Shown one piece after another: positions 41 to 45,884 of a stretch of 52,977 nucleotides of DNA. The stretch is from Patescibacteria group bacterium (GTDB lineage Bacteria > Patescibacteriota > Gracilibacteria > Peribacterales > Peribacteraceae), in the NCBI GenBank assembly GCA_043819035.1, contig JBDRFD010000009.1:1-52977 (forward strand), read 5' to 3'. A model generated the notes under the pieces. That model was not told where the DNA came from. It ran no database searches and saw only the letters and a list, made by a program, of their open reading frames with translations. The position numbers and the translations under genes were made by a program. How positions within the stretch are numbered: the stretch's first letter is position 1; each line of letters opens with the position of its first letter.

Positions 41-74
41 GGTGACTTGCGACCTTCGACCTGTGACCTGTGAC
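41..74. repeat. heptamer-word repeat arm (GTGACTT GCGACCT TCGACCT GTGACCT GTGAC)
   Basis: 7-nt periodic run. Same word family as 45490-45644. The partner arm may lie outside the window. Confidence 0.6.
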
Positions 75-4418: not shown

Positions 4419-5957
4419 ATGAACCCCACCTTCCTCGCCCTCCTCACTACTGCGGCCTCTCTTTCTCCACTCATTACATTTGCCTCACTCTGGCAGATCA
4501 AGGAGTGGCGCACCGATCGTTTGCGTGAACATCTAAGAAGTGAAGGACTACTCAGACAACTATTCGGAATTCTGAGACCTGCCACCCTTGGTTTCTTTGG
4601 ATTCCTTGGTTTCCTTGGATTCCTTTCCAGGGACTTGTGGCCCATCGCAACACTTGCCGGTTACCTCGCTCTCAGCGCAATCCAAATCATCCTCCATCGA
4701 CATCCCAAACCTGTCTGGACGAAGAAAGCAATGACGCTTGTCACAACGGCACTATTACTCACATTCCTCACAACGATCTCCTACAAGCTGCAAGCTGCAA
4801 GTTTTCAATTAGTTGTGACTCCTCTTCTTCAACCCTTCTATCTTTTTATAGCTTGGATCTTGTGGTCACCAACTGATAAGTACCTCAAAGCACGCATAAT
4901 GTACCGGGCACAAAAACTTCGCATGGATCGCCCCGAATTGAATGTCATCGGAATCACAGGAAGTGTGGGAAAGAGTACAACCAAAGAGCTCCTGGCGCAC
5001 ATTTTGGAAGAGAAGCACCCACTCACCACACCCGATCACGTGAACACAGAAATGGGTGTATCACAGTGGTTACTCAGCACATTACCAAAAAATCCTGAAG
5101 CAGAAATACTCATTGTAGAAATGGGCGCCTATCAATCGGGTGAAATCGCACTCCTCTGCTCTATCACTCAGCCAACCATGGGTGTGGTGACCTTCATTGG
5201 TACACAACACATTGCCCTCTTTGGTTCACAGGAGGAACTATGCCAGGCAAAAGGTGAGCTGGTCGCTGCCCTACCGGATAATGGCTCCGCATTTCTTAAT
5301 AGTGACAGCGCGTTATGCAATGATCTCAAAGAACTCTGTGCGTGTCCGATCACCACTATCGGAACTGGCGGCGTTTCAGACATCGAGGCGTTTGATATTG
5401 AAGAAACTCCAAACGGTATTCAATTCCGCCTCAGTTCTACCTCCTTTTTTGTTCCTCTCCACGGAACCCATAACGTAACAAACGTCCTCTTGGCCATCGC
5501 TGTTGCAGAAAAACTTGGCATGGATCGATCAGCTATTGCACAGAAGTTGAAAAGTTACCGTCCCGCCCTCCATACCTTCTCCGTGCGTGAAGAGAGAGGA
5601 GTGACGATTCTCGACGATACGAACAACGCAAGTCAGGCGAGTTTCAAGGCGGCACTCGCGTGGGCCAAATCTCAACCTGCAGAGAATAAGATTCTTCTGA
5701 CGAGTGGCTTAATAGAGCTCGGCGATGCTCAGGATCGCACACACACAGAACTCGGTACACTCTCGGCGGGAATCTTTGACCGTGTCGTTTTTACACACAG
5801 AAAAAGTGCTCGCAGTTTCGCACGTGGCTATGGCCAGGACATCGAAATCTTTACAAAGTACTCAGAAAAAGTAGATCCGGATTCACTTTTGGTCTGCGTT
5901 GGAAGAATGTCCACGAGCATTATCGAGAAACTACTTCCCAAAATTTCTGAACCTTGA
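4419..5957 (+). CDS. murF: MurF-family Mur ligase (UDP-MurNAc-peptide D-Ala-D-Ala-adding type) with N-terminal multi-TM domain
   Basis: P-loop VIGITGSVGKSTTKE and the MurF-like DDTNNAS motif. The first ~170 aa form 4-5 hydrophobic helices instead of the usual soluble domain 1. Confidence 0.6.
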   Translation: MNPTFLALLTTAASLSPLITFASLWQIKEWRTDRLREHLRSEGLLRQLFGILRPATLGFFGFLGFLGFLSRDLWPIATLAGYLALSAIQIILHRHPKPVWTKKAMTLVTTALLLTFLTTISYKLQAASFQLVVTPLLQPFYLFIAWILWSPTDKYLKARIMYRAQKLRMDRPELNVIGITGSVGKSTTKELLAHILEEKHPLTTPDHVNTEMGVSQWLLSTLPKNPEAEILIVEMGAYQSGEIALLCSITQPTMGVVTFIGTQHIALFGSQEELCQAKGELVAALPDNGSAFLNSDSALCNDLKELCACPITTIGTGGVSDIEAFDIEETPNGIQFRLSSTSFFVPLHGTHNVTNVLLAIAVAEKLGMDRSAIAQKLKSYRPALHTFSVREERGVTILDDTNNASQASFKAALAWAKSQPAENKILLTSGLIELGDAQDRTHTELGTLSAGIFDRVVFTHRKSARSFARGYGQDIEIFTKYSEKVDPDSLLVCVGRMSTSIIEKLLPKISEP

Positions 5958-13272: not shown

Positions 13273-13479
13273 TGAACAAATCTGCTACTCAGAGATTAAG
13301 GGAAATGTACCACTAAAAAGTACCCTTTCCACCTGAAAACAAAATTTGATCTTGCTCAAATATTATCCTCATGTTTTGAACACAAATTGTATGCATACAT
13401 TCTATCGGGGGAATGCGGGCAAAAAAGTTGATCAGAGAAGTCGCAAAGTTTGCTCTATATTGCGAAAAAACGCCAGAAA

Positions 13480-14286
13480 ATGTACAATAAGGGGGTGAAA
13501 TACAGACACTTTCTATTCTGCATAGTCTTCACCCTGGGTCTTCCACTCATTAGTTGTCATAAAAATGGTGAAACACCCGCCTCTTCCGTTTTGAAAGTAA
13601 GCGGAGCTAAGAGTTCTGTCTTTGCAACACTGCTCACGGCCAAACCAACTTCTGTTTCTCAGACAAGGCCGGGGGCATCTCTTGGAATGTATGTGAGTAT
13701 CTACCTGACACAAAGAATGATGATGGGAACCGCAAGCGCTCTGGAAGGTATTGATACGCAAATCCACCTTGCCCGTGCAGATTCGATCATTGAAGATGAA
13801 ACATTCACTCTCCTGCAGGAGTACGGAACCGTCCTTCAGGTAAATATAATCGATACGCTCAATCGATCCGTAGATCGTGAGAAGACGCTCGATAAGTACA
13901 CACTCTCACTGACACAAATGAATACTCGTATTGTACAAAAGCAGACCGAGCTTAAGCAGAAACTAGATGATATTGGGGAGAAGAGAAAGGTCGAACGGAA
14001 AGAAGTACGTGATATGGAGCGGATGATCAAGGATGCTCTTCGTGAAAAGGATTATGTCGCCGCAGGTCCTATACAGAAGGGACTTGCTTTGAAGGAAGCG
14101 AAGCTGGCCGGAACCGAATCCCTGGAGAAACAGACAGATAAAGTACTAGATATTGTCAAGGATCTGCTCGAAGTGGGAGAAGAGCGTCTACAGGCCATCA
14201 TTAAGAATCGTGAAATTTTGATCGCAGGACTGCAGGTGATTGATGTTCCCGGGATTGAGGAGCTGGGCATTGTGATTGAGGAATAA
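13480..14286 (+). CDS. coiled-coil lipoprotein, unknown function (adjacent to VirB4-like gene)
   Basis: ATG at 13480. Signal plus lipobox LPLISC. The C-terminal half is rich in heptad-like charged helices. Confidence 0.5.
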   Translation: MYNKGVKYRHFLFCIVFTLGLPLISCHKNGETPASSVLKVSGAKSSVFATLLTAKPTSVSQTRPGASLGMYVSIYLTQRMMMGTASALEGIDTQIHLARADSIIEDETFTLLQEYGTVLQVNIIDTLNRSVDREKTLDKYTLSLTQMNTRIVQKQTELKQKLDDIGEKRKVERKEVRDMERMIKDALREKDYVAAGPIQKGLALKEAKLAGTESLEKQTDKVLDIVKDLLEVGEERLQAIIKNREILIAGLQVIDVPGIEELGIVIEE

Positions 14287-14373: not shown

Positions 14374-14467
14374 TATTATTATTACTAAACAGTACTAACA
14401 ATAATGCAACTTCGCTCAATAGAAGAATTTGCACTTTTCCGCTATAATAAAAGGATTTATTGAACCT

Positions 14468-16780
14468 ATGGCTCAAAAAAGCGCCAATACTCTGCCGGCA
14501 CAACAGATTAGGCTCAGCCGTGTGCTCGTTGCCGCGATTGATGACCTTCTTGGGCTGCAACGCAGGGTTGAAAATACGCTGAAGGCGGCAAAACTTGCGA
14601 AGAGGCAAAAATTGACCACTGAGGATCAGGAGGAACTGAAACGTTACGAAGAAGGACTGCAGAAAACGCTCGATATTATTGCGCCTGCGGGAATGGAGAT
14701 TAAACCGGATGAATTCATTCTCAACGATCTGCATGGTCGAGTCCTCTATGCACTGAACTGGCCGCATTACATCTATCCAAACTGGCTCTCGGAGGAAATC
14801 AACTTCGATGCACACATGAATATCAGTCAGTTTATCTATCCTGCAGACAATAAGACGATAATGCGGATGCTCAGGAAAAAGGTGACGCAAATGCGTTCAT
14901 CTATTCACATGCTGGAACAACGAGGTATTGTTCGTGATCCATCGCTGGAAGCGGCACTGCAAGATGCGGAGGAGCTCAGAGACCTTCTCACACGTGGACG
15001 TGAAAAGCTCTTCCAAATCGGACTCTATGTGACGATTTACTCAGATGATCAGGAGAAGCTCAAGAAACTCCAGACAGATATTGAATCGCTTCTCGGCGGA
15101 AAGCTGGTCATTACCAAACCTGCTTTTATGCAAATGGAACATGGCTGGATTTCCACACTCCCATTCGGTATCGATGAACTGGAAGTAAACCGCAATATGA
15201 ATACATCGCCTGCAGCTGCATGCTTCCCTTTCTCCAGCTCCGACCTAACCGACGATCACGGTATCCTTTACGGTATTAACCGGCACAACGACAGTCTCGT
15301 GATCTTTGACCGCTTCGATCTGCCAAATGCAAATGCAACTGTGTTCGCTACATCCGGAGCAGGTAAATCCTTCGCGGTGAAGCTAGAAATCCTACGATCG
15401 TTAATGTTTGACACCGATATGTACGTAATAGACCCGGAAAATGAGTACCGCGAGCTGTGTGAAACGGTGGATGGAACATACATTCCGATTTCTTTGGAGA
15501 GTTCCAACCGTATTAATCCGTTCGACCTTCCTAAAGCAGTCCGAGGAGAGGAAGCATCCGTTGGTGAAACACTCCGCGCATCGGTCATCAACCTGCACGG
15601 ACTCTTTAAGCTGATGCTGGGAACACTTACTCCTTCTGAAGACGGTATTCTTGATAAGGCAATCTTAGACACGTATGCGCTGAAAGGTATTTCACTCACA
15701 ACAGATAATCATGCTGAAAAAGAAGTTCCGACTCTATCGGACCTTGTCGATGTTCTACTTACAACGGATGGAGGTGAAAACATGGCGAAGACACTTTCGA
15801 AGTACACAGAAGGAAGTTACGCAGGACTCTTCGATAAACCGACAAATGTGCAGATTGAAAACCAGATGGTTGTCTTCCAGATTCGTGATTTGGAAGATCA
15901 ACTCCGACCCATCGCGATGTATGTGGTTATCAACCTAATTTGGAACCGCATCAGAGCAGACTTCAAGAAGCGCATGCTCGTGATCGATGAAGCATGGAGT
16001 CTGATTCAGCATGAAGACTCTGCGCGATTCCTCTATGGCTTGATCAAACGTGCGCGTAAGTACTACCTTGGTGTCACGACTATTACTCAAGATGTGGAAG
16101 ACTTCGTGAATTCTCCGTATGGAAAACCGATTATCACAAATGCATCGCTCCAGATTCTTTTCAAGCAATCCCCTAGCGCGATCGATAATCTCCAGAAGAT
16201 CTTCTATCTTACGGAGGGTGAAAAGTATCTGTTACTGGGATCCGAAGTGGGTCAAGGGCTTTTCTTCGCCGGAAACAGGCACGTGGCAATTCAAATCATC
16301 GCGAGTCCGCAGGAGGCCCGGATCATAACCACAAATCCCGAAGATATCTTGGCAAAGAAGGAATCCAAGAGACTTGCTGCAATAACTGATGAAAAGAACA
16401 AGGGTGGATCTTCCGATCGCACGCCCGCTCCACCAAAGAAAGAAACCGCACAAAGTACAGGCGATGCAGAAGCAAAAACGGAAAATAAACATGAACCACA
16501 ACCGGAACAGAATGAGCAACATCAAGAATCTGAAACCAAAGAAGCATCAATCGAAGATAAAGTGCTCCCGCTTCAAGATTCACTCAAGGAACATGAGCCC
16601 ATCAAGGAACTTCCGGTGGAAGAAACGGAAAAGACACAGAAGAAAACTAAAAAAGAAGGTATCCGAAAGCTCAATAAAAATATCACGCTAAAACAAGCAA
16701 CTGCACCACCTCCCGGGAGGAAAAAGAAAGAAGAAGAACTATTGGAGGCTGAAGAAGAGAAAAGTGAAGACGAAGAGTAA
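14468..16780 (+). CDS. VirB4/TrbE-type type IV secretion ATPase (Gram-positive conjugation-like architecture) with long Lys/Glu-rich tail
   Basis: IAPAG..I-type N-domain, FPF motif, Walker A FATSGAGKSF, Walker B MLVIDEAWSL. The last ~140 aa are low-complexity K/E/Q-rich. Confidence 0.8.
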   Translation: MAQKSANTLPAQQIRLSRVLVAAIDDLLGLQRRVENTLKAAKLAKRQKLTTEDQEELKRYEEGLQKTLDIIAPAGMEIKPDEFILNDLHGRVLYALNWPHYIYPNWLSEEINFDAHMNISQFIYPADNKTIMRMLRKKVTQMRSSIHMLEQRGIVRDPSLEAALQDAEELRDLLTRGREKLFQIGLYVTIYSDDQEKLKKLQTDIESLLGGKLVITKPAFMQMEHGWISTLPFGIDELEVNRNMNTSPAAACFPFSSSDLTDDHGILYGINRHNDSLVIFDRFDLPNANATVFATSGAGKSFAVKLEILRSLMFDTDMYVIDPENEYRELCETVDGTYIPISLESSNRINPFDLPKAVRGEEASVGETLRASVINLHGLFKLMLGTLTPSEDGILDKAILDTYALKGISLTTDNHAEKEVPTLSDLVDVLLTTDGGENMAKTLSKYTEGSYAGLFDKPTNVQIENQMVVFQIRDLEDQLRPIAMYVVINLIWNRIRADFKKRMLVIDEAWSLIQHEDSARFLYGLIKRARKYYLGVTTITQDVEDFVNSPYGKPIITNASLQILFKQSPSAIDNLQKIFYLTEGEKYLLLGSEVGQGLFFAGNRHVAIQIIASPQEARIITTNPEDILAKKESKRLAAITDEKNKGGSSDRTPAPPKKETAQSTGDAEAKTENKHEPQPEQNEQHQESETKEASIEDKVLPLQDSLKEHEPIKELPVEETEKTQKKTKKEGIRKLNKNITLKQATAPPPGRKKKEEELLEAEEEKSEDEE

Positions 16781-21952: not shown

Positions 21953-22297
21953 TTATCCGATACCACCCACAAATGCGCCAATAAACGTGATAATCGCTTC
22001 CGCAGCAATAGCCAGAACGAGCCCGACGAGTGCTGCAATAATGATCTTCTTGGCATCTTCTTTGCCCTGATCGTTCCCTCCGGATGCAATAAGTTTGATA
22101 GCTCCATAAACGATTGCAATCACCGCAGCTCCGGCTATCACAATGGCAAAGAAGTTTCCGATGCGGGCCGCAAGTACCACTGCAAAAGCGCTTCCCGCCG
22201 AACAGTCCGGATGAAGCTTTTCGCAATACACATCAAAAGCATTTGCATGCGCTTTTTCGATTATCAGGCCGACAAGAGCAGAGAAAGCAATCATCAT
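21953..22297 (-). CDS. VirB2/TrbC-like (T4SS pilin-like) small membrane protein
   Basis: Signal peptide (..EKAHA), a Cys pair, then two TM helices separated by a short charged loop (ASGGNDQGKEDAKK). There is a 4-nt overlap with the upstream gene. Confidence 0.5.
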   Translation of the reverse strand: MMIAFSALVGLIIEKAHANAFDVYCEKLHPDCSAGSAFAVVLAARIGNFFAIVIAGAAVIAIVYGAIKLIASGGNDQGKEDAKKIIIAALVGLVLAIAAEAIITFIGAFVGGIG

Positions 22298-22872
22298 AAA
22301 GGAAGATTCATAACAGAAACCACCAGCGCCTGAGCGACATTAACAACAATCGCGCCAATCACCGCCCAGATGATAATGCCACGGGCTTTGGTGAATTCGT
22401 CACTGCTGCCGCGGGCAAAAGCCATGCGAAAACCGGACGCAACCATCATAAGCGCAAAAACCGCGTTGAAGAGGACCACCATCGCATTCACTGCATATCC
22501 CATAAGGTGGAAGACGGGATCACTGCTTCCCATCAAACCACCGAATTGCGCACCAACAAAAGCCGCAATGCTTTGCGCGAGGAGTGTGATACCCAATCCC
22601 ACAAGCGCATAAACAATGGACATCTTCCCCTTTTGTATCTGGCCTTCTTCTCCCAGGCTCGTAAGCATTAGCGCACCGCCAACAACCACGAAAACAACAG
22701 ACAATCCTGCGGCAACGGAAACCAGTAAGTTCGCAACGGGGCCGACTGCGATTGCAAGAACATTAGCAGGTCCGCACCCGCCGACATACGCGCACGGATT
22801 AGCCATCGCAGAAGCGGAGAGAGGAAAAACACCAACCGTGAAACCGATCTGGAGCGGGATAAGTTTTTTCAT
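22294..22872 (-). CDS. tandemly duplicated VirB2/TrbC-like pilin-type membrane protein
   Basis: Signal peptide and a Cys pair (CAYVGGC). Two successive TM-loop-TM units (..SLGEEGQIQKGKM.. and ..ARGSSDEFTKARG..). ATGA overlaps at both ends. Confidence 0.5.
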   Translation of the reverse strand: MKKLIPLQIGFTVGVFPLSASAMANPCAYVGGCGPANVLAIAVGPVANLLVSVAAGLSVVFVVVGGALMLTSLGEEGQIQKGKMSIVYALVGLGITLLAQSIAAFVGAQFGGLMGSSDPVFHLMGYAVNAMVVLFNAVFALMMVASGFRMAFARGSSDEFTKARGIIIWAVIGAIVVNVAQALVVSVMNLPL

Positions 22873-23345
22873 ACAAAGAAACTTGCATTGAGGAAGTTAA
22901 GTATCACACCAACAAAAACCAGTGCAATCAGCCCGATAATCGCCCACTTGATGTGCTCGATCCATTTGCTTCGTCCGCTCTGGTCTCCTCCAAAAACAAT
23001 AATCATGCCGCCGCTCACCAGTACCCACAGCGTTACAAGACCTACTGCAACAAGAACAAGCCAATTCCACGCTCTTTGTACATATACTAAAAATGGCAAG
23101 ACGCCCCCTACAGCTACAGGAACATTGGCATCACCTGCAATCGGCTCGATGAGTGGAACAGCATTCTGTTTTTGTTCGACATGATGTCTATTAAAATATA
23201 TACATCCTTCAATTTCACATTGTTCTTTTGATACTCCTTCTGGACAAATTCCATCAGGATGAGCACAAGCAAAAGCCATTTCAGAACTTGTGAAGCTAAC
23301 GAGTATCCCCAGCAATACGCCGGTGATGATTAGACGCAAAGACAT
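22869..23345 (-). CDS. VirB2/TrbC-like pilin-type membrane protein with Cys-rich ectodomain
   Basis: ATG at 23345 (MSLRLIITGVLLGILV signal). Six-Cys segment CAHPDGICPEGVSKEQCEIEGC. The C-terminal TM-loop-TM reads VSGGMIIVFGGDQSGRSKWIEHIKWAIIGL. Confidence 0.5.
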   Translation of the reverse strand: MSLRLIITGVLLGILVSFTSSEMAFACAHPDGICPEGVSKEQCEIEGCIYFNRHHVEQKQNAVPLIEPIAGDANVPVAVGGVLPFLVYVQRAWNWLVLVAVGLVTLWVLVSGGMIIVFGGDQSGRSKWIEHIKWAIIGLIALVFVGVILNFLNASFFV

Positions 23346-23566
23346 CAAAGTATTATACCTTAAATTTGGCTTTATTTCGAGCTGAAAATGGGCATCTATA
23401 AGGCAAGAGAATGACAAAGAATCTTGCATCGAGGTTCAATTCTACGTAGCATTCTCGGGCTCCTTCACACACGGACAGCGCTTCCACCTTCGTCCCGTAT
23501 GCGCGGGACTACGGTTGACAGGTTCTCTGCGGGAGATGGATGCGATATACCGTTCATTTCAATCAT

Positions 23567-37779: not shown

Positions 37780-38178
37780 ATGCTTCATGGTCGTTCAGAT
37801 TATTTAAGCGCTCTGAGTACACCGTTAATTCTGTGGCTGCTGACGATTCCCGTTTTTGTTAGTGCGCAAGCTTCTACGTTAATTCCTTCATCAGGGACAC
37901 TTGGAACCTGCAATTTTCGTACAGGAACAATTCATGCCGATTGCGTACCAGTATACATCGGTTATTTGATTGAAATACTCTTCATGCTCATCGGCGCATT
38001 CTTTTTTATCATGATCCTCTTATCGGGATATCAAATCGCTGTAGGAAGTCTGGCCGGCGGTGAAGGATTGTCATCGGGACTTCAGAGGTTAAAATGGGCT
38101 ATACTTGGGTTCATGATCAGCGCGTTTTCTTTCTTCATTATAGCTTTCTTTATTTCCGCTCTCGGTTTCGGTACTTAA
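37780..38178 (+). CDS. VirB2/TrbC-like pilin-type membrane protein (fourth paralog)
   Basis: Signal peptide (..VFVSAQA), a Cys pair (C..x..C), and TM-loop-TM (..SLAGGEGLSSGLQRLKW..). Confidence 0.5.
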   Translation: MLHGRSDYLSALSTPLILWLLTIPVFVSAQASTLIPSSGTLGTCNFRTGTIHADCVPVYIGYLIEILFMLIGAFFFIMILLSGYQIAVGSLAGGEGLSSGLQRLKWAILGFMISAFSFFIIAFFISALGFGT

Positions 38179-39608: not shown

Positions 39609-39989
39609 CTATGATTTCTTAGAAGCCTGGAGCTTCCTGATAAGGGAATTCAACATTTTCATAACTCCAAACAAAAGACTGCTGATCTTTCTGTAATCGA
39701 AGTCCTTTGTTTGTGGAAGTCTCTTAGCAATTTCAATCTGCGTCTCCAATTCTGCGCCTGAAGAATATGCAATATTCAGAAACTTGATGTAATCCTTTTT
39801 GGTCTTCCGAGACTTCCCCTCTGCAATGTTGGAGGGAATGGAAACCGCCGATCGTCTCAACTGACTCGTGAGACCGTAGAGTTCTTCTTTAGGAAACTTC
39901 TGTGTAAGTTCATACAGAATAGTTACGAGCTCAACGGACTGCTGCCAGACGATGAGGTCTCTGTACGAGCGAATCTGTGCTGATGCCAT
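39609..39989 (-). CDS. four-helix-bundle protein (23S rRNA intervening-sequence protein family)
   Basis: YRDLIVWQ.S..L....Y.LT..FPKEE.YGLTSQLRR.AVSIPSNIAEG. Bracketed by MITE copies 2 and 3. Confidence 0.8.
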   Translation of the reverse strand: MASAQIRSYRDLIVWQQSVELVTILYELTQKFPKEELYGLTSQLRRSAVSIPSNIAEGKSRKTKKDYIKFLNIAYSSGAELETQIEIAKRLPQTKDFDYRKISSLLFGVMKMLNSLIRKLQASKKS

Positions 39990-43116: not shown

Positions 43117-43182
43117 AAAAGTTAAAAGTGAAGAGTGAATAGTTGTATGATGTGGTATTGCAATTATACAATTAACAAGTCT

Positions 43183-43743
43183 ATGAAATTCATTCTCATA
43201 TTTGGTCCACCGGCTGTTGGAAAAATGACTGTTGGTCACGAGTTAGAAAAACTCACTGACTTCAAATTATTTCACAATCATATGAGCATCGATTTGGTTT
43301 TACCCTTCTTTAAACACGGAACACCAAGCTTTCATAGGCTTAATAATCTATTCCGAAATGAATTGTTCAAAGAAGTAGCAAAAAGTGATCTAAAGGGTTT
43401 CATTTTTACTTATGTTTGGGCTCTCGATGAAGAATCTGATAACAAGTATGTAGATACAATAACAGAAATTTTCAAAAAAGAAGGTGCTGAAGTTTTTTAC
43501 GTTGAACTTGAAGCAGAACTTGATGAAAGATTGAAGCGTAATAAAACACCACATCGACTTGAGCACAAACCATTTAAAAGAAATATCAAAGATTCAGAAA
43601 GAAGATTGCTAAAAGATGATAAAGATTATCGGCTCAATACCAATGAGAATGAATTTCAAAGAAACAACTATCTTAAAATTGATAATACATCGTTAAGTGC
43701 AGACAAAACTGCAAGATTGATAAAAGACCACTTTGATTTATAG
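43183..43743 (+). CDS. P-loop NTPase/kinase-like protein
   Basis: MKFILIFGPPAVGKMT Walker A. 186 aa. The gene is visibly more A+T-rich than its neighbours. Confidence 0.5.
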   Translation: MKFILIFGPPAVGKMTVGHELEKLTDFKLFHNHMSIDLVLPFFKHGTPSFHRLNNLFRNELFKEVAKSDLKGFIFTYVWALDEESDNKYVDTITEIFKKEGAEVFYVELEAELDERLKRNKTPHRLEHKPFKRNIKDSERRLLKDDKDYRLNTNENEFQRNNYLKIDNTSLSADKTARLIKDHFDL

Positions 43744-43935
43744 AACAAATTATAATACCACATTCTATAACGCATTTTTCACCCCCCAATATCCATAACA
43801 AACAACATCCCGACCAAGTCAATTTCACAACATTCTTAATAAATTGACAACCACATGCCCACCCCAAAGAGCCGCTTTTCTGCTATAATAATAGGATTTC
43901 CTCGTAGTGAGTTTTTATCACACTATTGAAACTCT

Positions 43936-44562
43936 ATGCCTATCGAACCTGTAAAAATTCCACAGAATGTCCAGATCGAGGACCGGCTAATCGGGCCGAT
44001 CACTCTCAGACAGGTTATTATCTGTCTCATTGGCGGAGGTATGAGTTTTGTAATCTGGAATATGATGAAGTCAGTCGGAATGGTGACTATTATACACTTT
44101 GCCTTTTCATGGATTCCATTTGTTATCGCAGCGGCATTTGCATTTATTAAATTCCAAAACTTATCTCTTCTACGGATCATTCTTCTGATGATAGAAAAAG
44201 GCCAAAAACCTTCAAAGCGAACATTCGGACCCCGTGAAGGAATTGCGATTAATGTTCGCACGTATTTCCACACCGAAAAACAGAAGCAGAAGTATTCCAT
44301 TGATCAAACCAGAGTTACAGAGGATAAATTCCAACACTTGAGTTCTGTGTTAGATAAAGAATCCGCTCAAGCTCAGGAATCACATACTGAAACCGATAAA
44401 AGCGAACTCCATGATGAAACGGGAAAGAGCACACCGGTTGATCCAAAGCGAGTGTCGGTGGAACCTTCCGCAAAGTCACAGCCAAACATTGATGGGATGA
44501 GTCCTTCTTCTATGCAATCAAACACTACTGTAACCAAGGAATCTTCACCTTCTGTTCCCTAA
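43936..44562 (+). CDS. PrgI-like (VirB3-type) T4SS membrane protein with disordered tail
   Basis: N-terminal VKIPQNVQIEDRLIGPITLRQVIICLIGG followed by two TM helices, as in PrgI-family proteins. The C-terminal ~90 aa are polar and low-complexity. Confidence 0.55.
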   Translation: MPIEPVKIPQNVQIEDRLIGPITLRQVIICLIGGGMSFVIWNMMKSVGMVTIIHFAFSWIPFVIAAAFAFIKFQNLSLLRIILLMIEKGQKPSKRTFGPREGIAINVRTYFHTEKQKQKYSIDQTRVTEDKFQHLSSVLDKESAQAQESHTETDKSELHDETGKSTPVDPKRVSVEPSAKSQPNIDGMSPSSMQSNTTVTKESSPSVP

Positions 44563-44563
44563 T

Positions 44564-45382
44564 ATGCCAAATGACCCTTTGCCACAGGCAGAAGAAGAAA
44601 TGACCGCTTCCACTTACAAAGAAGAGGAATTAGACGATAAATTCGAAGAGGAAGAAGAACCGGCCAAGAAGAAAACGTTCATCGAAAAAATAAAATGTAC
44701 GGTACGTCAGCGGAAAAGGAACGAAAAAGCAACTACACAGCGCTATCTGCCAATCGCGGAAATCCGCAATGATACGGTGGTTCTGAAAAACGGTGGCTTG
44801 CGTGCGGTTCTGTCGGTTGAACCTCTTAATTTCAACCTCAAGAGCGAAACCGAACAGGAAGGAATCATCGCACGCTACCAAAACTTCCTCAACACGCTCA
44901 CTTTCCCCATTCAGATTGTGGTGGCATCCACACGGGTAAACATCGATCCGTACATCAATAAGATTCGCATGCGCGCGGGTTCACAGAAGAATGAACTCTT
45001 GCGGCAGCAATCGTTGCTGTACGCGACATTTGTGGAGAAACTCGTAGAAGTGGCAGATATCATGCAGAAGGATTTTTACGTCGTTGTGCCTCAGGATGAC
45101 CAGCCCCCCAAAAGAAACTCCATATTACAATTCATGAGATGGTTTAAAACGGAAGACACAGCTGCCAAAATCAGCCAGCGCAATCAACGCTTCCACCAGC
45201 GAAGTGTGCTCCTGCGAGACCGCGTTAACCTGGTGCAATCAAGCCTTCATAATGTTGGGATTCAATCTCGTCGCTTGAACACCCAGGAGCTCATTGAAAC
45301 GTACTATCAGCTATATAATCCTCGTACAAGTCAGGAGCAGAAATTACCGAGCAACCTCAATACAGAAGAATTGGTGTTATAA
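44564..45382 (+). CDS. T4SS-associated protein resembling the N-terminal domain of VirB4/TrsE-type ATPases (no ATPase domain)
   Basis: YLPIAEIRNDTVVLKNGGLRAVLSVEPLNFNLKSETEQEGIIARYQNFLNTLTFPIQIVV pattern. It starts 1 nt after the PrgI-like stop. No Walker motifs. Confidence 0.5.
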   Translation: MPNDPLPQAEEEMTASTYKEEELDDKFEEEEEPAKKKTFIEKIKCTVRQRKRNEKATTQRYLPIAEIRNDTVVLKNGGLRAVLSVEPLNFNLKSETEQEGIIARYQNFLNTLTFPIQIVVASTRVNIDPYINKIRMRAGSQKNELLRQQSLLYATFVEKLVEVADIMQKDFYVVVPQDDQPPKRNSILQFMRWFKTEDTAAKISQRNQRFHQRSVLLRDRVNLVQSSLHNVGIQSRRLNTQELIETYYQLYNPRTSQEQKLPSNLNTEELVL

Positions 45383-45489
45383 CTTCAAACCGAAGAATGA
45401 GTATTCTAATTCAAAGATGGAAACAATAGGGTTATGGGTTTTATACCGGATTAACTATTACATTTTCGCTTATTCTAAGTGATTTAGTT

Positions 45490-45644
45490 GGTGACAAGTC
45501 ACAGGTCGCATGCCCGCCTGCCGGACGGGCAGGGCACAAGTCTTGGCCCAGGTCGCATGTCGCAGGACCTGTCACGGCGTACGCGAACGCCGTGACCTGT
45601 GACCTGCGACCAAACCTGCGACTTGTGACCTTCGACCTGTGATC
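45490..45644. repeat. compound hairpin of GACCTGT/GACCTGC heptamer words
   Basis: CAGGTCGCATGTCGCAGGACCTGTCACGGCG-loop-CGCCGTGACCTGTGACCTGCGACC, plus the palindrome CCCGCCTGCCGGACGGGCAGGG. Confidence 0.6.
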
Positions 45645-45884
45645 GATTACATCCATTATTCAATTCGAAAAAGCATTTCTTAATTTGGTATTAGGTGATT
45701 AGCCCCCAATGCAGCGGCGACGCAGCGTCGCCGATGCGTCTTGTCAAACTAGTCTAAAAGAATCTCTCCAAATTCTTGACATTATTCATCAGAATTGCGA
45801 TCCTCAAATCGATCAGTTGCTGCTCGTGCAAGGGCGCTGCTCTCAAAATATCTTATTTCTTCCCACTTGCACCATTTCTTTACT

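What the first reader, a model, noticed from the sequence alone, without database searches (positions are those of the whole stretch)
43936..45382. PrgI-like gene coupled to a VirB4-N-domain-like gene, 28 kb from the ATPase
The 208-aa protein begins like PrgI/VirB3-type proteins (..IEDRLIGPITLRQVI.. followed by two TM helices). One nucleotide after its stop, a 272-aa protein starts whose core (YLPIAEIRNDTVVLKNGGLRAVLSVEPLNFNLKSETEQEG..) resembles the extreme N-terminal module found fused to VirB4 ATPases of Gram-positive systems. It has no nucleotide-binding motifs. The only ATPase candidate is at 14468-16780. Either the VirB4 function is split into unlinked genes, or this is a separate adaptor. 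Both arrangements are poorly described.
Basis: partly seen in the sequence, partly recalled or inferred. Interest (0 to 1): 0.65.

Follow-up and report, generated by a model that had tools for sequence, protein, structure and literature searches.

The report
Split VirB4: PrgI plus TrsD-like gene

Summary
43936-44562 encodes a PrgI/VirB3 protein (Pfam above threshold, two TM helices). One nucleotide after its stop, 44564-45382 encodes a 272-aa soluble protein without Walker motifs. This protein is homologous to the first ~185-215 residues of VirB4, shown by family profiles, BLAST to fused VirB4s and Foldseek (top 14 PDB hits all TrwK/VirB4).

The VirB4 ATPase at 14468-16780 starts only at VirB4 model position ~250. 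The two proteins cover collinear, non-overlapping parts of full-length VirB4s and share no similarity with each other. The window holds no second copy of the N-module.

The split is not new. The pGO1 plasmid has trsC-trsD-trsE broken at the same position. Three other CPR loci have adjacent prgI, trsD-like and short virB4 genes. Quinonero-Coronel et al. 2025 report TrsD as the commonest Patescibacteria T4SS component, unlinked from virB4 in Gracilibacteria. Pfam has PF26593 'TraC-like'.

What I add is the explicit complementarity, a naturally fused relative, strong purifying selection, and PrgI-TrsD coupling that persists after virB4 moved away. This suggests a VirB3:VirB4-N docking module working in trans, which is inferred, not shown. 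Interest is low to moderate.

The parts
43936..44562 (+). PrgI/VirB3-like inner-membrane protein (208 aa): two TM helices followed by a hydrophilic, low-complexity tail of about 130 aa
   Evidence: Pfam PF12666 at 37.2 bits, above the cut-off of 27, covering the full model. Hydropathy analysis. It lies directly upstream of the TrsD-like gene in every related locus examined: tblastn hits in L001-L005 and L007-L012 and gene calls/Pfam in L006, L016 and L017. dN/dS 0.14.
44564..45382 (+). TrsD-like / 'TraC-like' protein (272 aa). Residues 1-55 are a disordered charged tail. Residues ~57-265 fold as the detached first subdomain (N1) of the VirB4 N-terminal domain. It has no nucleotide-binding motif.
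   Evidence: VirB4 profiles hit their N-terminal positions only. BLAST to fused VirB4 P0255 residues 11-217, E 4e-40. AlphaFold2 model with mean pLDDT 81 and a core mostly above 90. Foldseek top 14 hits are all TrwK/VirB4. hhalign to pGO1 TrsD at 87% and to Clostridia VirB4 at 97% probability. dN/dS 0.07, and 0.03 in the core.
14468..16780 (+). Short VirB4 ATPase (770 aa; an alternative TTG start lies at 14429). It carries the second half of the N-terminal domain (N2), the P-loop ATPase domain, and a charged C-terminal tail of about 140 aa. It lacks the N1 module.
   Evidence: NF045971 at 365 bits (cut-off 325), matching model positions 133-734 of 752. TIGR00929 positions 251-724. TraC_F_IV positions 249-374 of 375. 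PDB 4ag5 VirB4 C-terminal domain, E 3e-46. Aligns to P0255 residues 314-890 at 50% identity. Walker A and B present.
21959..23429 (-). Cluster of VirB2-type T4SS pilin genes: 22869-23429, 22294-22872, and a third pilin-like ORF at about 21959-22237
   Evidence: Pfam T4SS_pilin PF18895, E 9e-14 and 5e-7. tblastn E 2e-5 for the third ORF.
37780..38178 (+). Further pilin-like small membrane protein (132 aa)
   Evidence: Hydropathy analysis. 55% identical to the L001 gene at 4806-5171, which carries a weak precomputed T4SS_pilin hit. No local Pfam hit.
43881..43889 (+). Possible extended -10 promoter element (TGcTATAAT), 47 nt upstream of the prgI start codon. Inferred only.
   Evidence: Read directly from the sequence. 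The consensus scan did not call a full -35/-10 promoter here.

Best explanation
The window is chromosomal DNA of a Candidatus Peregrinibacteria (Peribacteraceae) bacterium, part of the CPR/Patescibacteria. It carries the dispersed parts of the Patescibacteria-type, Gram-positive-like type IV secretion system.

In this system the VirB4 motor is made from two polypeptides. The 272-aa TrsD-like protein is the first subdomain (N1, about the first 185-215 residues) of the VirB4 N-terminal domain. The 770-aa protein at 14468-16780 supplies the second subdomain (N2) and the ATPase domain.

The TrsD-like gene is translationally coupled (TAA-T-ATG) to prgI, the VirB3 homologue. In canonical systems VirB3 wraps around the VirB4 N-terminal domain and anchors it to the membrane.

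Proposed mechanism: PrgI and TrsD-like are made together in matched amounts and form a membrane-bound docking module. The separately expressed N1-less VirB4 then binds this module, which rebuilds a complete N-terminal domain. That lets the ATPase hexamer assemble at the membrane to energise pilus or substrate transport.

Shown here: homology of each piece, complementarity of the two pieces, conservation, purifying selection, and synteny. Inferred: physical PrgI-TrsD-VirB4 assembly in trans, and its role.
For: (1) Complementarity. The 272-aa protein aligns to P0255 residues 11-217 and the ATPase to residues 314-890. The two window proteins share no similarity. The same non-overlapping pattern appears on TIGR00929 (3-184 against 251-724), VirB4_plasma (89-237 against 276-893) and TraC_F_IV (4-183 against 249-374). 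It also appears on the single-ORF Clostridia VirB4s, at about residues 27-126 against 231-818.

(2) Fold. The model is confident, and only TrwK/VirB4 chains match it significantly.

(3) There is a single copy of the N-module in the window (HMM E 2e-90, next-best hit E 0.47).

(4) The same break recurs elsewhere. Three other CPR loci have adjacent prgI, trsD-like and short virB4 (594-628 aa) genes, with the VirB4 starting at the same model positions. pGO1 has trsC-trsD-trsE, with TrsE starting at TIGR00929 position 240.

(5) PrgI is immediately upstream in all related loci, with a 1-nt gap in the window, L016 and L017 and a 3-nt gap in L001.

(6) Purifying selection is strong. The window's unlinked pair is no more diverged from other CPR systems (N-module 36-42%, ATPase 50-55% identity) than linked pairs are from each other. 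Divergences of the two modules are correlated (Mantel r 0.91, p about 4e-4, 8 systems).

(7) Literature. VirB3 wraps around the VirB4 N-terminal domain, TrwK residues 15-400 (PMC9259494). TrsD and PrgI homologues are essential in Ca. Southlakia epibionticum, and TrsD co-occurs with Patescibacteria-clade VirB4 in 2,209 of 2,272 cases (PMC12102498).
Against: No interaction was tested, because no multimer modelling tool was available.

The Foldseek TM-scores are modest (about 0.4, rmsd 4-10 A). The tool gives no target coordinates, so placement on TrwK rests on HMM positions.

The hits to the curated TrsD and VirB4 models are below their cut-offs, and sequence or profile searches of the PDB find nothing.

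The Mantel correlation is driven largely by the CPR against non-CPR group structure. It shows co-inheritance, not contact.

The 28-kb separation and the lack of shared regulation signals leave open that expression is not coordinated.

The substrate and role of the CPR T4SS are unknown.
Confidence: 0.7

Rival explanations
1. The TrsD-like protein is an independent adaptor or regulator. It descends from a VirB4 N-domain but no longer works as part of VirB4. With PrgI it might recruit substrates or pilins, or serve another machine. This would explain why it can sit far from virB4 beside ClpC and rpsA.
For: It is unlinked from virB4 in this lineage (and PMC12102498). The ClpC...prgI-trsD-rpsA-HIT neighbourhood is conserved. 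The family has variable N- and C-terminal extensions that could carry other functions. [quoted passage not shown]
Against: The accompanying VirB4 lacks exactly the piece that TrsD provides, in every split system examined. A fused version exists within the CPR-type clade. The core is extremely conserved (dN/dS 0.03), with no acceleration after unlinking. An adaptor role and an 'N1 in trans' role are not mutually exclusive.
Confidence: 0.2
2. The 272-aa ORF is a leftover fragment of a virB4 gene broken by a chromosomal rearrangement. It would be non-functional or decaying.
For: It matches only the N-terminus of VirB4, and the rest of the gene is 28 kb away.
Against: dN/dS is 0.07 overall and 0.03 in the core. 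There are more than 1,900 homologues of similar length. The same stand-alone gene occurs in other CPR classes and in pGO1. The predicted fold is confident. The homologue is essential in S. epibionticum (PMC12102498).
Confidence: 0.02
3. The 771-aa ATPase is a complete VirB4 that already has the N-module, and the 272-aa protein is a redundant paralogue.
For: None found.
Against: The two proteins share no similarity. The ATPase starts at model positions 133 of 752, 251 of 792 and 276 of 894. An HMM of the N-module finds only one copy in six-frame translations of the window. The ORF just upstream of the ATPase (13450-14286) is unrelated.
Confidence: 0.01

Closest known systems
TrsD homologues of the Patescibacteria T4SS (Quinonero-Coronel et al. 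2025, PMC12102498); Pfam PF26593 'TraC-like'
   Same: Same family. All 120 listed homologues carry PF26593. They are stand-alone proteins of about 230-450 aa lying next to PrgI. The family is described as remotely homologous to the VirB4 N-terminus. It is the most abundant T4SS component in Patescibacteria. The paper notes that TrsD and VirB3 are not near virB4 in the class Gracilibacteria. From my own knowledge of GTDB, that class contains Peribacterales.
   Different: Nothing essential. The paper assigns no function and, in the text I read, does not state that the clade's VirB4 lacks this segment. The stored copy of the paper's supplement is cut, so I could not confirm that the particular assemblies I found are in its tables.
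TrsD/TraD of staphylococcal conjugative plasmids pGO1/pSK41 (NCBIfam NF041427), with TrsC and TrsE
   Same: The gene order is VirB3-like trsC, then trsD (227 aa), then short VirB4 trsE (672 aa, starting at TIGR00929 position 240). This is the same break point as here. A profile of the CPR family aligns to almost all of TrsD (residues 31-217, hhalign 87%, E 4e-6).
   Different: Identity is only about 24%. The window protein scores 36.9 bits against a family cut-off of 200. The pGO1 genes are contiguous on a conjugative plasmid with a relaxase and a coupling protein. Here the pair is chromosomal, among housekeeping genes, and 28 kb from virB4.
Canonical single-chain VirB4 (TrwK of R388, PDB 7O41/8RTB; TIGR00929; Clostridia CD1110-type)
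   Same: The N1 fold and sequence profile match the first ~185 residues. The VirB3 gene precedes it. VirB3 wraps around the VirB4 N-terminal domain in the R388 structure (PMC9259494).
   Different: In the canonical proteins one polypeptide of about 800 aa carries N1, N2 and the ATPase domain. Here N1 is a separate protein.
VirB3-VirB4 fusion proteins (e.g. Campylobacter plasmids, cited in PMC12102498)
   Same: They show the same functional unit, VirB3 plus the VirB4 N-terminus, with modular gene boundaries.
   Different: The boundary change goes the opposite way (fusion instead of fission). None were found in Patescibacteria (PMC12102498), and none of the N-terminally extended family members I scanned had a PrgI domain.

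Membership tests
PrgI family (Pfam PF12666; VirB3 analogue of Gram-positive T4SS) | Match to the family model above the curated threshold | tested here: met
   37.2 bits against a cut-off of 27, E 4.4e-9, residues 7-97 on model positions 1-91 of 91.
PrgI family (Pfam PF12666; VirB3 analogue of Gram-positive T4SS) | Small membrane protein with two TM helices after a short N-terminal cytoplasmic segment, encoded directly upstream of the VirB4 N-terminus | tested here: met
   Hydrophobic segments at about residues 22-45 and 46-73. The stop codon lies 1 nt before the gene for the VirB4 N1 module.
TrsD/TraD family (NCBIfam NF041427) | Score at or above the curated cut-off of the family model | tested here: not met
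   36.9 bits against a cut-off of 200, E 3e-9, model positions 9-126 of 201 only. It is a remote homologue, not a member in NCBI's sense.
TrsD/TraD family (NCBIfam NF041427) | Stand-alone protein homologous to the VirB4 N-terminus, accompanying a VirB3-like gene and an N-terminally short VirB4 | tested here: met
   hhalign of the family profile against pGO1 TrsD: 87% probability, E 4e-6, 176 columns. The pGO1 gene order and the TrsE start position match the CPR arrangement.
Pfam PF26593 'TraC-like' (Patescibacteria TrsD homologues) | Match to PF26593 | not testable with these tools
   The local Pfam copy did not return this model. All 120 listed homologues, including one 97% identical, carry a precomputed PF26593 hit, so membership is inferred.
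VirB4 N-terminal domain, first subdomain (N1) | Sequence homology to the N-terminus of full-length VirB4 proteins | tested here: met
   BLASTP to P0255 residues 11-217, 35% identity, E 4e-40. hhalign to Clostridia VirB4 residues 24-148, 97.4% probability. TIGR00929 positions 3-184, E 8e-7.
VirB4 N-terminal domain, first subdomain (N1) | Structural similarity to a solved VirB4 | tested here: met
   The Foldseek top 14 PDB hits are all TrwK/VirB4 (E 2e-4 to 7e-3, probability 1.00, 179-237 aligned columns, TM about 0.4). The next hit has E 0.19. TM-scores are modest.
Split (two-gene) VirB4 | The two products cover complementary, non-overlapping, collinear parts of a single-chain homologue, and neither duplicates the other | tested here: met
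Split (two-gene) VirB4 | The two products assemble physically into one functional enzyme | not testable with these tools
   No multimer prediction or experiment was available. This is inferred from complementarity, co-occurrence (PMC12102498) and the existence of a fused relative.
VirB4 family ATPase (NF045971 CD1110 type / TIGR00929), for 14468-16780 | Score above the curated cut-off, with Walker A and B motifs | tested here: met
   NF045971 at 365.2 bits against a cut-off of 325, but only model positions 133-734. SGAGKS and VIDEAW are present. PDB 4ag5 E 3e-46. Its TIGR00929 score (133.9 bits) is below that model's cut-off of 643.

The most novel reading that the evidence does not exclude
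VirB4 of the whole Patescibacteria T4SS clade, and of pGO1-type plasmids, may be an obligate two-polypeptide motor. In this reading TrsD is not an accessory factor but the N1 subdomain of VirB4. It is produced in fixed proportion with PrgI/VirB3 as a membrane receptor module, and the N1-less ATPase docks onto that module in trans. Peregrinibacteria show that the module can be fully uncoupled genetically from the motor. This would give TrsD, an essential gene in Ca. Southlakia epibionticum with 'no function assigned', its first mechanistic role. It would also offer a natural split system for dissecting VirB3-VirB4 docking.
Probability: 0.6. Interest if true: 0.45.

Novelty: already known. Interest (0 to 1): 0.3.

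Why it matters
The T4SS of Patescibacteria is essential for epibiotic growth in the one species where it has been tested. Its commonest component, TrsD, has no assigned function. Recognising TrsD as the missing first subdomain of a split VirB4, always co-encoded with VirB3/PrgI, gives a concrete and testable assembly model: a membrane docking module plus a separately supplied motor. It also explains why surveys count 'TrsD' and short 'VirB4' together. For genome annotation, the 272-aa gene should be labelled as the VirB4 N-terminal subunit rather than 'hypothetical'. This refines published knowledge rather than uncovering a new system.

Tried and rejected
- Sequence (phmmer) and profile (hmmsearch) searches of PDB sequences with the 272-aa protein or its family found nothing relevant. 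Only the fold comparison links it to TrwK.
- The search for related loci with the family alignment failed because no block was conserved enough. With the single protein it returned only 7 loci, so a broad taxon-by-taxon linkage census was not possible. I relied on 17 loci plus the published census.
- I looked for PrgI-TrsD fusions among relatives whose TrsD domain is C-terminal (P0266, P0240, P0229, P0256, P0214). Most N-terminal extensions are low-complexity P/Q/N-rich. P0256's extension has hydrophobic, TM-like stretches. None gave a PrgI hit.
- The unannotated ORF just upstream of the ATPase (13450-14286) was tested as a possible second N-module and is unrelated.
- I tried to confirm in the paper's supplementary tables that my Peregrinibacteria assemblies are listed. 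The stored file is cut and they were not found.
- The local Pfam copy lacks PF26593, so direct membership could not be scored.
- Guglielmini 2014 (PMC4027160) does not mention TrsD in its main text. The TrsD-VirB4 homology statement is taken from PMC12102498, which cites it.
- The promoter and terminator scans gave no more sites than shuffled sequence.
Full report
OBSERVATION

The ORF listing confirms two same-strand ORFs at exactly the stated coordinates. They are 43936-44562 (208 aa) and 44564-45382 (272 aa). The junction reads TAA-T-ATG.

The 208-aa product matches Pfam PrgI (PF12666) over the entire model and above the gathering score (37.2 against 27 bits). It has two hydrophobic helices (about residues 22-45 and 46-73) followed by a long hydrophilic tail.

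The 272-aa product has no TM segment and no P-loop. The only family models that match it are VirB4-type models, and always at their N-terminal ends:
- TIGR00929, positions 3-184 of 792
- VirB4_plasma, positions 89-237 of 894
- Pfam TraC_F_IV, positions 4-183 of 375
- NCBIfam TrsD/TraD, positions 9-126 of 201

All four hits are below the curated cut-offs.

The ATPase at 14468-16780 is a genuine VirB4. It scores 365 bits against NF045971 (cut-off 325), matches the PDB 4ag5 VirB4 C-terminal domain at E 3e-46, and has Walker A and B motifs.

WHAT THE WINDOW IS

Homologues of the 272-aa protein come from Candidatus Peregrinibacteria/Peribacteraceae metagenome-assembled genomes.

The window is a chromosome segment full of housekeeping genes: ArgRS, MetRS, Fmt, RuvB, L11, L1, Dus, ClpC, S1, HIT and five tRNAs.

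T4SS-like genes are scattered through it:
- VirB4 at 14.5-16.8 kb
- three pilin-like genes at 21.96-23.43 kb
- another pilin-like gene at 37.8 kb
- prgI and the TrsD-like gene at 43.9-45.4 kb

No relaxase or coupling protein was found in the window.

(a) Similarity to VirB4 N-domains. An exhaustive search of 1.84 billion representatives found 2,307 related clusters. Almost all are stand-alone proteins of 200-450 aa, but one is an 898-aa protein, P0255.
- P0255 is a full-length VirB4: it has ATPase domains at residues 548-853, and VirB4_plasma matches positions 92-893 in a single stretch.
- The 272-aa protein aligns to P0255 residues 11-217 (35% identity, E 4e-40).
- A profile of the family also aligns to residues 24-148 of a canonical 835-aa Clostridia VirB4 (hhalign 97.4% probability).
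- An AlphaFold2 model built on a 51-sequence alignment is confident (mean pLDDT 81, with the core residues 57-265 mostly above 90).
- Its 14 best Foldseek matches in the PDB are all TrwK/VirB4 chains of the R388 T4SS (E 2e-4 to 7e-3). After those, E-values jump to 0.19 or higher for unrelated proteins. TM-scores are modest, about 0.4.

(b) Complementary or overlapping?
- The ATPase aligns to P0255 residues 314-890 (50% identity).
- It aligns to VirB4 models only from positions 133 of 752, 251 of 792 and 276 of 894 onward, and to TraC_F_IV at positions 249-374 of 375.
- It has no similarity to the 272-aa protein.
- In the Clostridia single-ORF VirB4s, the two window proteins hit collinear, non-overlapping segments, at about residues 27-126 and 231-818.
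- An HMM of the N-module finds only one copy in the six-frame translation of the window.
- The ORF immediately upstream of the ATPase is unrelated.

The two products are therefore complementary pieces. The break lies inside the VirB4 N-terminal domain, between an N1 and an N2 subdomain. It does not lie between the N- and C-terminal domains.

HOW GENERAL THE SPLIT IS

Three loci from other CPR lineages have prgI, a TrsD-like gene and virB4 directly adjacent. These include a Nomurabacteria locus. Their VirB4s are short (594-628 aa) and start at the same model positions as the window's ATPase.

The staphylococcal plasmid pGO1, prototype of the TrsD family, has trsC (VirB3-like), trsD (227 aa) and trsE (672 aa). 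TrsE begins at TIGR00929 position 240. The CPR profile aligns to nearly the whole of TrsD.

The fused form P0255 sits after a prgI gene in a T4SS-like cluster. Its ATPase part is 59% identical to those of split CPR systems, so it is probably a secondary fusion. That last point is inference.

In Peribacteria/Gracilibacteria loci, prgI and the TrsD-like gene stay together but no virB4 lies in the available flanks:
- L001, L002: 10 kb on each side
- L016: about 10 kb on each side
- L017: 10 kb upstream and 4.8 kb downstream, to the contig end
- L008, L012: 3.4 and 2.9 kb downstream

The local order ClpC ... prgI - trsD-like - rpsA - HIT is conserved, while the stretch between ClpC and prgI varies.

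SELECTION

Against a relative at 92% and 85% amino-acid identity (TrsD-like and PrgI respectively), dN/dS is 0.07 for the TrsD-like gene. It is 0.03 in the folded core and 0.41 in the disordered N-terminal tail. For PrgI it is 0.14.

The unlinked window pair is no more diverged from other CPR systems than linked pairs are from each other. Divergences of the N-module and the ATPase are correlated over 8 systems (Mantel r 0.91, p about 4e-4). This correlation mostly reflects co-inheritance and group structure, not proof of contact.

LITERATURE

Quinonero-Coronel et al. 2025 (PMC12102498) report the following:
- Nearly all of these are in genomes with Patescibacteria-clade VirB4.
- VirB3 is near virB4 in only 4.7% of Gracilibacteria cases.
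- VirB6 is undetectable in Gracilibacteria.
- TrsD and PrgI homologues are essential in Ca. Southlakia epibionticum.

That GTDB's class Gracilibacteria includes Peribacterales is my own knowledge. The truncated supplement did not let me confirm it.

The words 'split' and 'truncated' do not occur in that paper. The word 'split' does not occur in the 2025 nomenclature review, which does not mention TrsD at all. Wang et al. 2023 does not discuss VirB4 domains.

Mace et al. [quoted passage not shown] They also show that this domain mediates VirB4 dimerisation.

MECHANISM (INFERRED)

PrgI and the TrsD-like protein are translationally coupled. They would form a membrane-anchored VirB3:VirB4-N1 module. 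The separately encoded N2-ATPase protein would dock onto it, which restores a complete N-terminal domain and allows hexamer assembly at the membrane.

The fact that prgI-trsD stays intact while virB4 can move away argues that the PrgI-N1 contact is the one that needs co-translation or fixed stoichiometry.

Rivals:
- An adaptor that has become independent of VirB4. This is possible but disfavoured by the exact complementarity.
- A decaying gene fragment. This is excluded by the selection and conservation data.
- A redundant paralogue. This is excluded.

VERDICT

It is not a new kind of system. The family is named (TrsD/TraD; Pfam PF26593 'TraC-like'), and its abundance in CPR and its unlinking in this lineage are published.

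The added value here is fourfold: the explicit complementarity, a break point shared with pGO1, a natural fused relative, and a functional hypothesis for TrsD.

Interest is 0.3. Novelty: already known.

Noticed in passing
window 45488-45645 (spacer between the TrsD-like stop at 45382 and the rpsA start at 45795): A GC-rich element (60% against about 45% background) of about 155 nt, strongly self-complementary. It is built from GTGACCT/GCGACCT-type heptads in direct and inverted orientation. The RNA fold is -93.5 kcal/mol, z = -7.8 against shuffles. It has no Rfam match. It is absent from the shorter spacers of relatives L001, L016 and L017. It looks like an inserted REP/MITE-like palindromic repeat and could act as a terminator or insulator between the prgI-trsD pair and rpsA.
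   Followed up: partly
window 41-74: A second short run of the same heptad motif (GGTGACTTGCGACCTTCGACCTGTGACCTGTGAC), 96% identical over 23 nt to part of the 45.5-kb element. The motif occurs 4 times in the window against 0.03 expected by chance. This suggests a dispersed repeat family in this genome.
   Followed up: partly
window 13450-14286 (+): A 278-aa ORF directly upstream of the VirB4 ATPase, with a lipoprotein-like signal (…LISC) and a long coiled-coil C-terminal half. It has no Pfam hit and is unrelated to the TrsD-like protein. It may be an unrecognised T4SS partner.
   Followed up: partly
window 21959-23429 (-) and 37780-38178 (+): Two clear T4SS_pilin (VirB2-like) genes, plus a third pilin-like ORF in tandem and a fourth pilin-like gene 15 kb away. 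The system's parts are scattered over at least 30 kb among housekeeping genes.
   Followed up: partly
window 16352-16780 (ATPase residues ~629-770) and 44221-44562 (PrgI residues ~96-208): Both the VirB4 ATPase and PrgI carry long, charged or low-complexity C-terminal tails of about 140 and 110 aa. These are absent from the 594-628-aa VirB4s of other CPR loci. Their function is unknown.
   Followed up: no
L003 8001-10697 / L004 6652-9348 (protein P0255): A naturally fused TrsD-VirB4 of 898 aa, with a non-conserved linker of about 95 aa. It lies after a prgI gene in a cluster with very large (1,241 and 1,428 aa) unannotated proteins and an SLT-like gene. The organism is unknown (Logan assemblies).
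   Followed up: partly
window 39609-39989 (-): A gene for a '23S rRNA-intervening-sequence protein' (PF05635, E 6e-37; weak bAvd-like hit) lies between the AI-2E transporter gene and clpC. It is conserved at the same place in L016.
   Followed up: no
window 43135-43743 (+), and L016 8232-9167, L017 2360-9116: The stretch between clpC and prgI is a variable slot. It holds an AAA_18 kinase-like gene here, two small ORFs in L016, and six mostly glycosyltransferase genes in L017. The downstream order prgI-trsD-rpsA-HIT is fixed.
   Followed up: no
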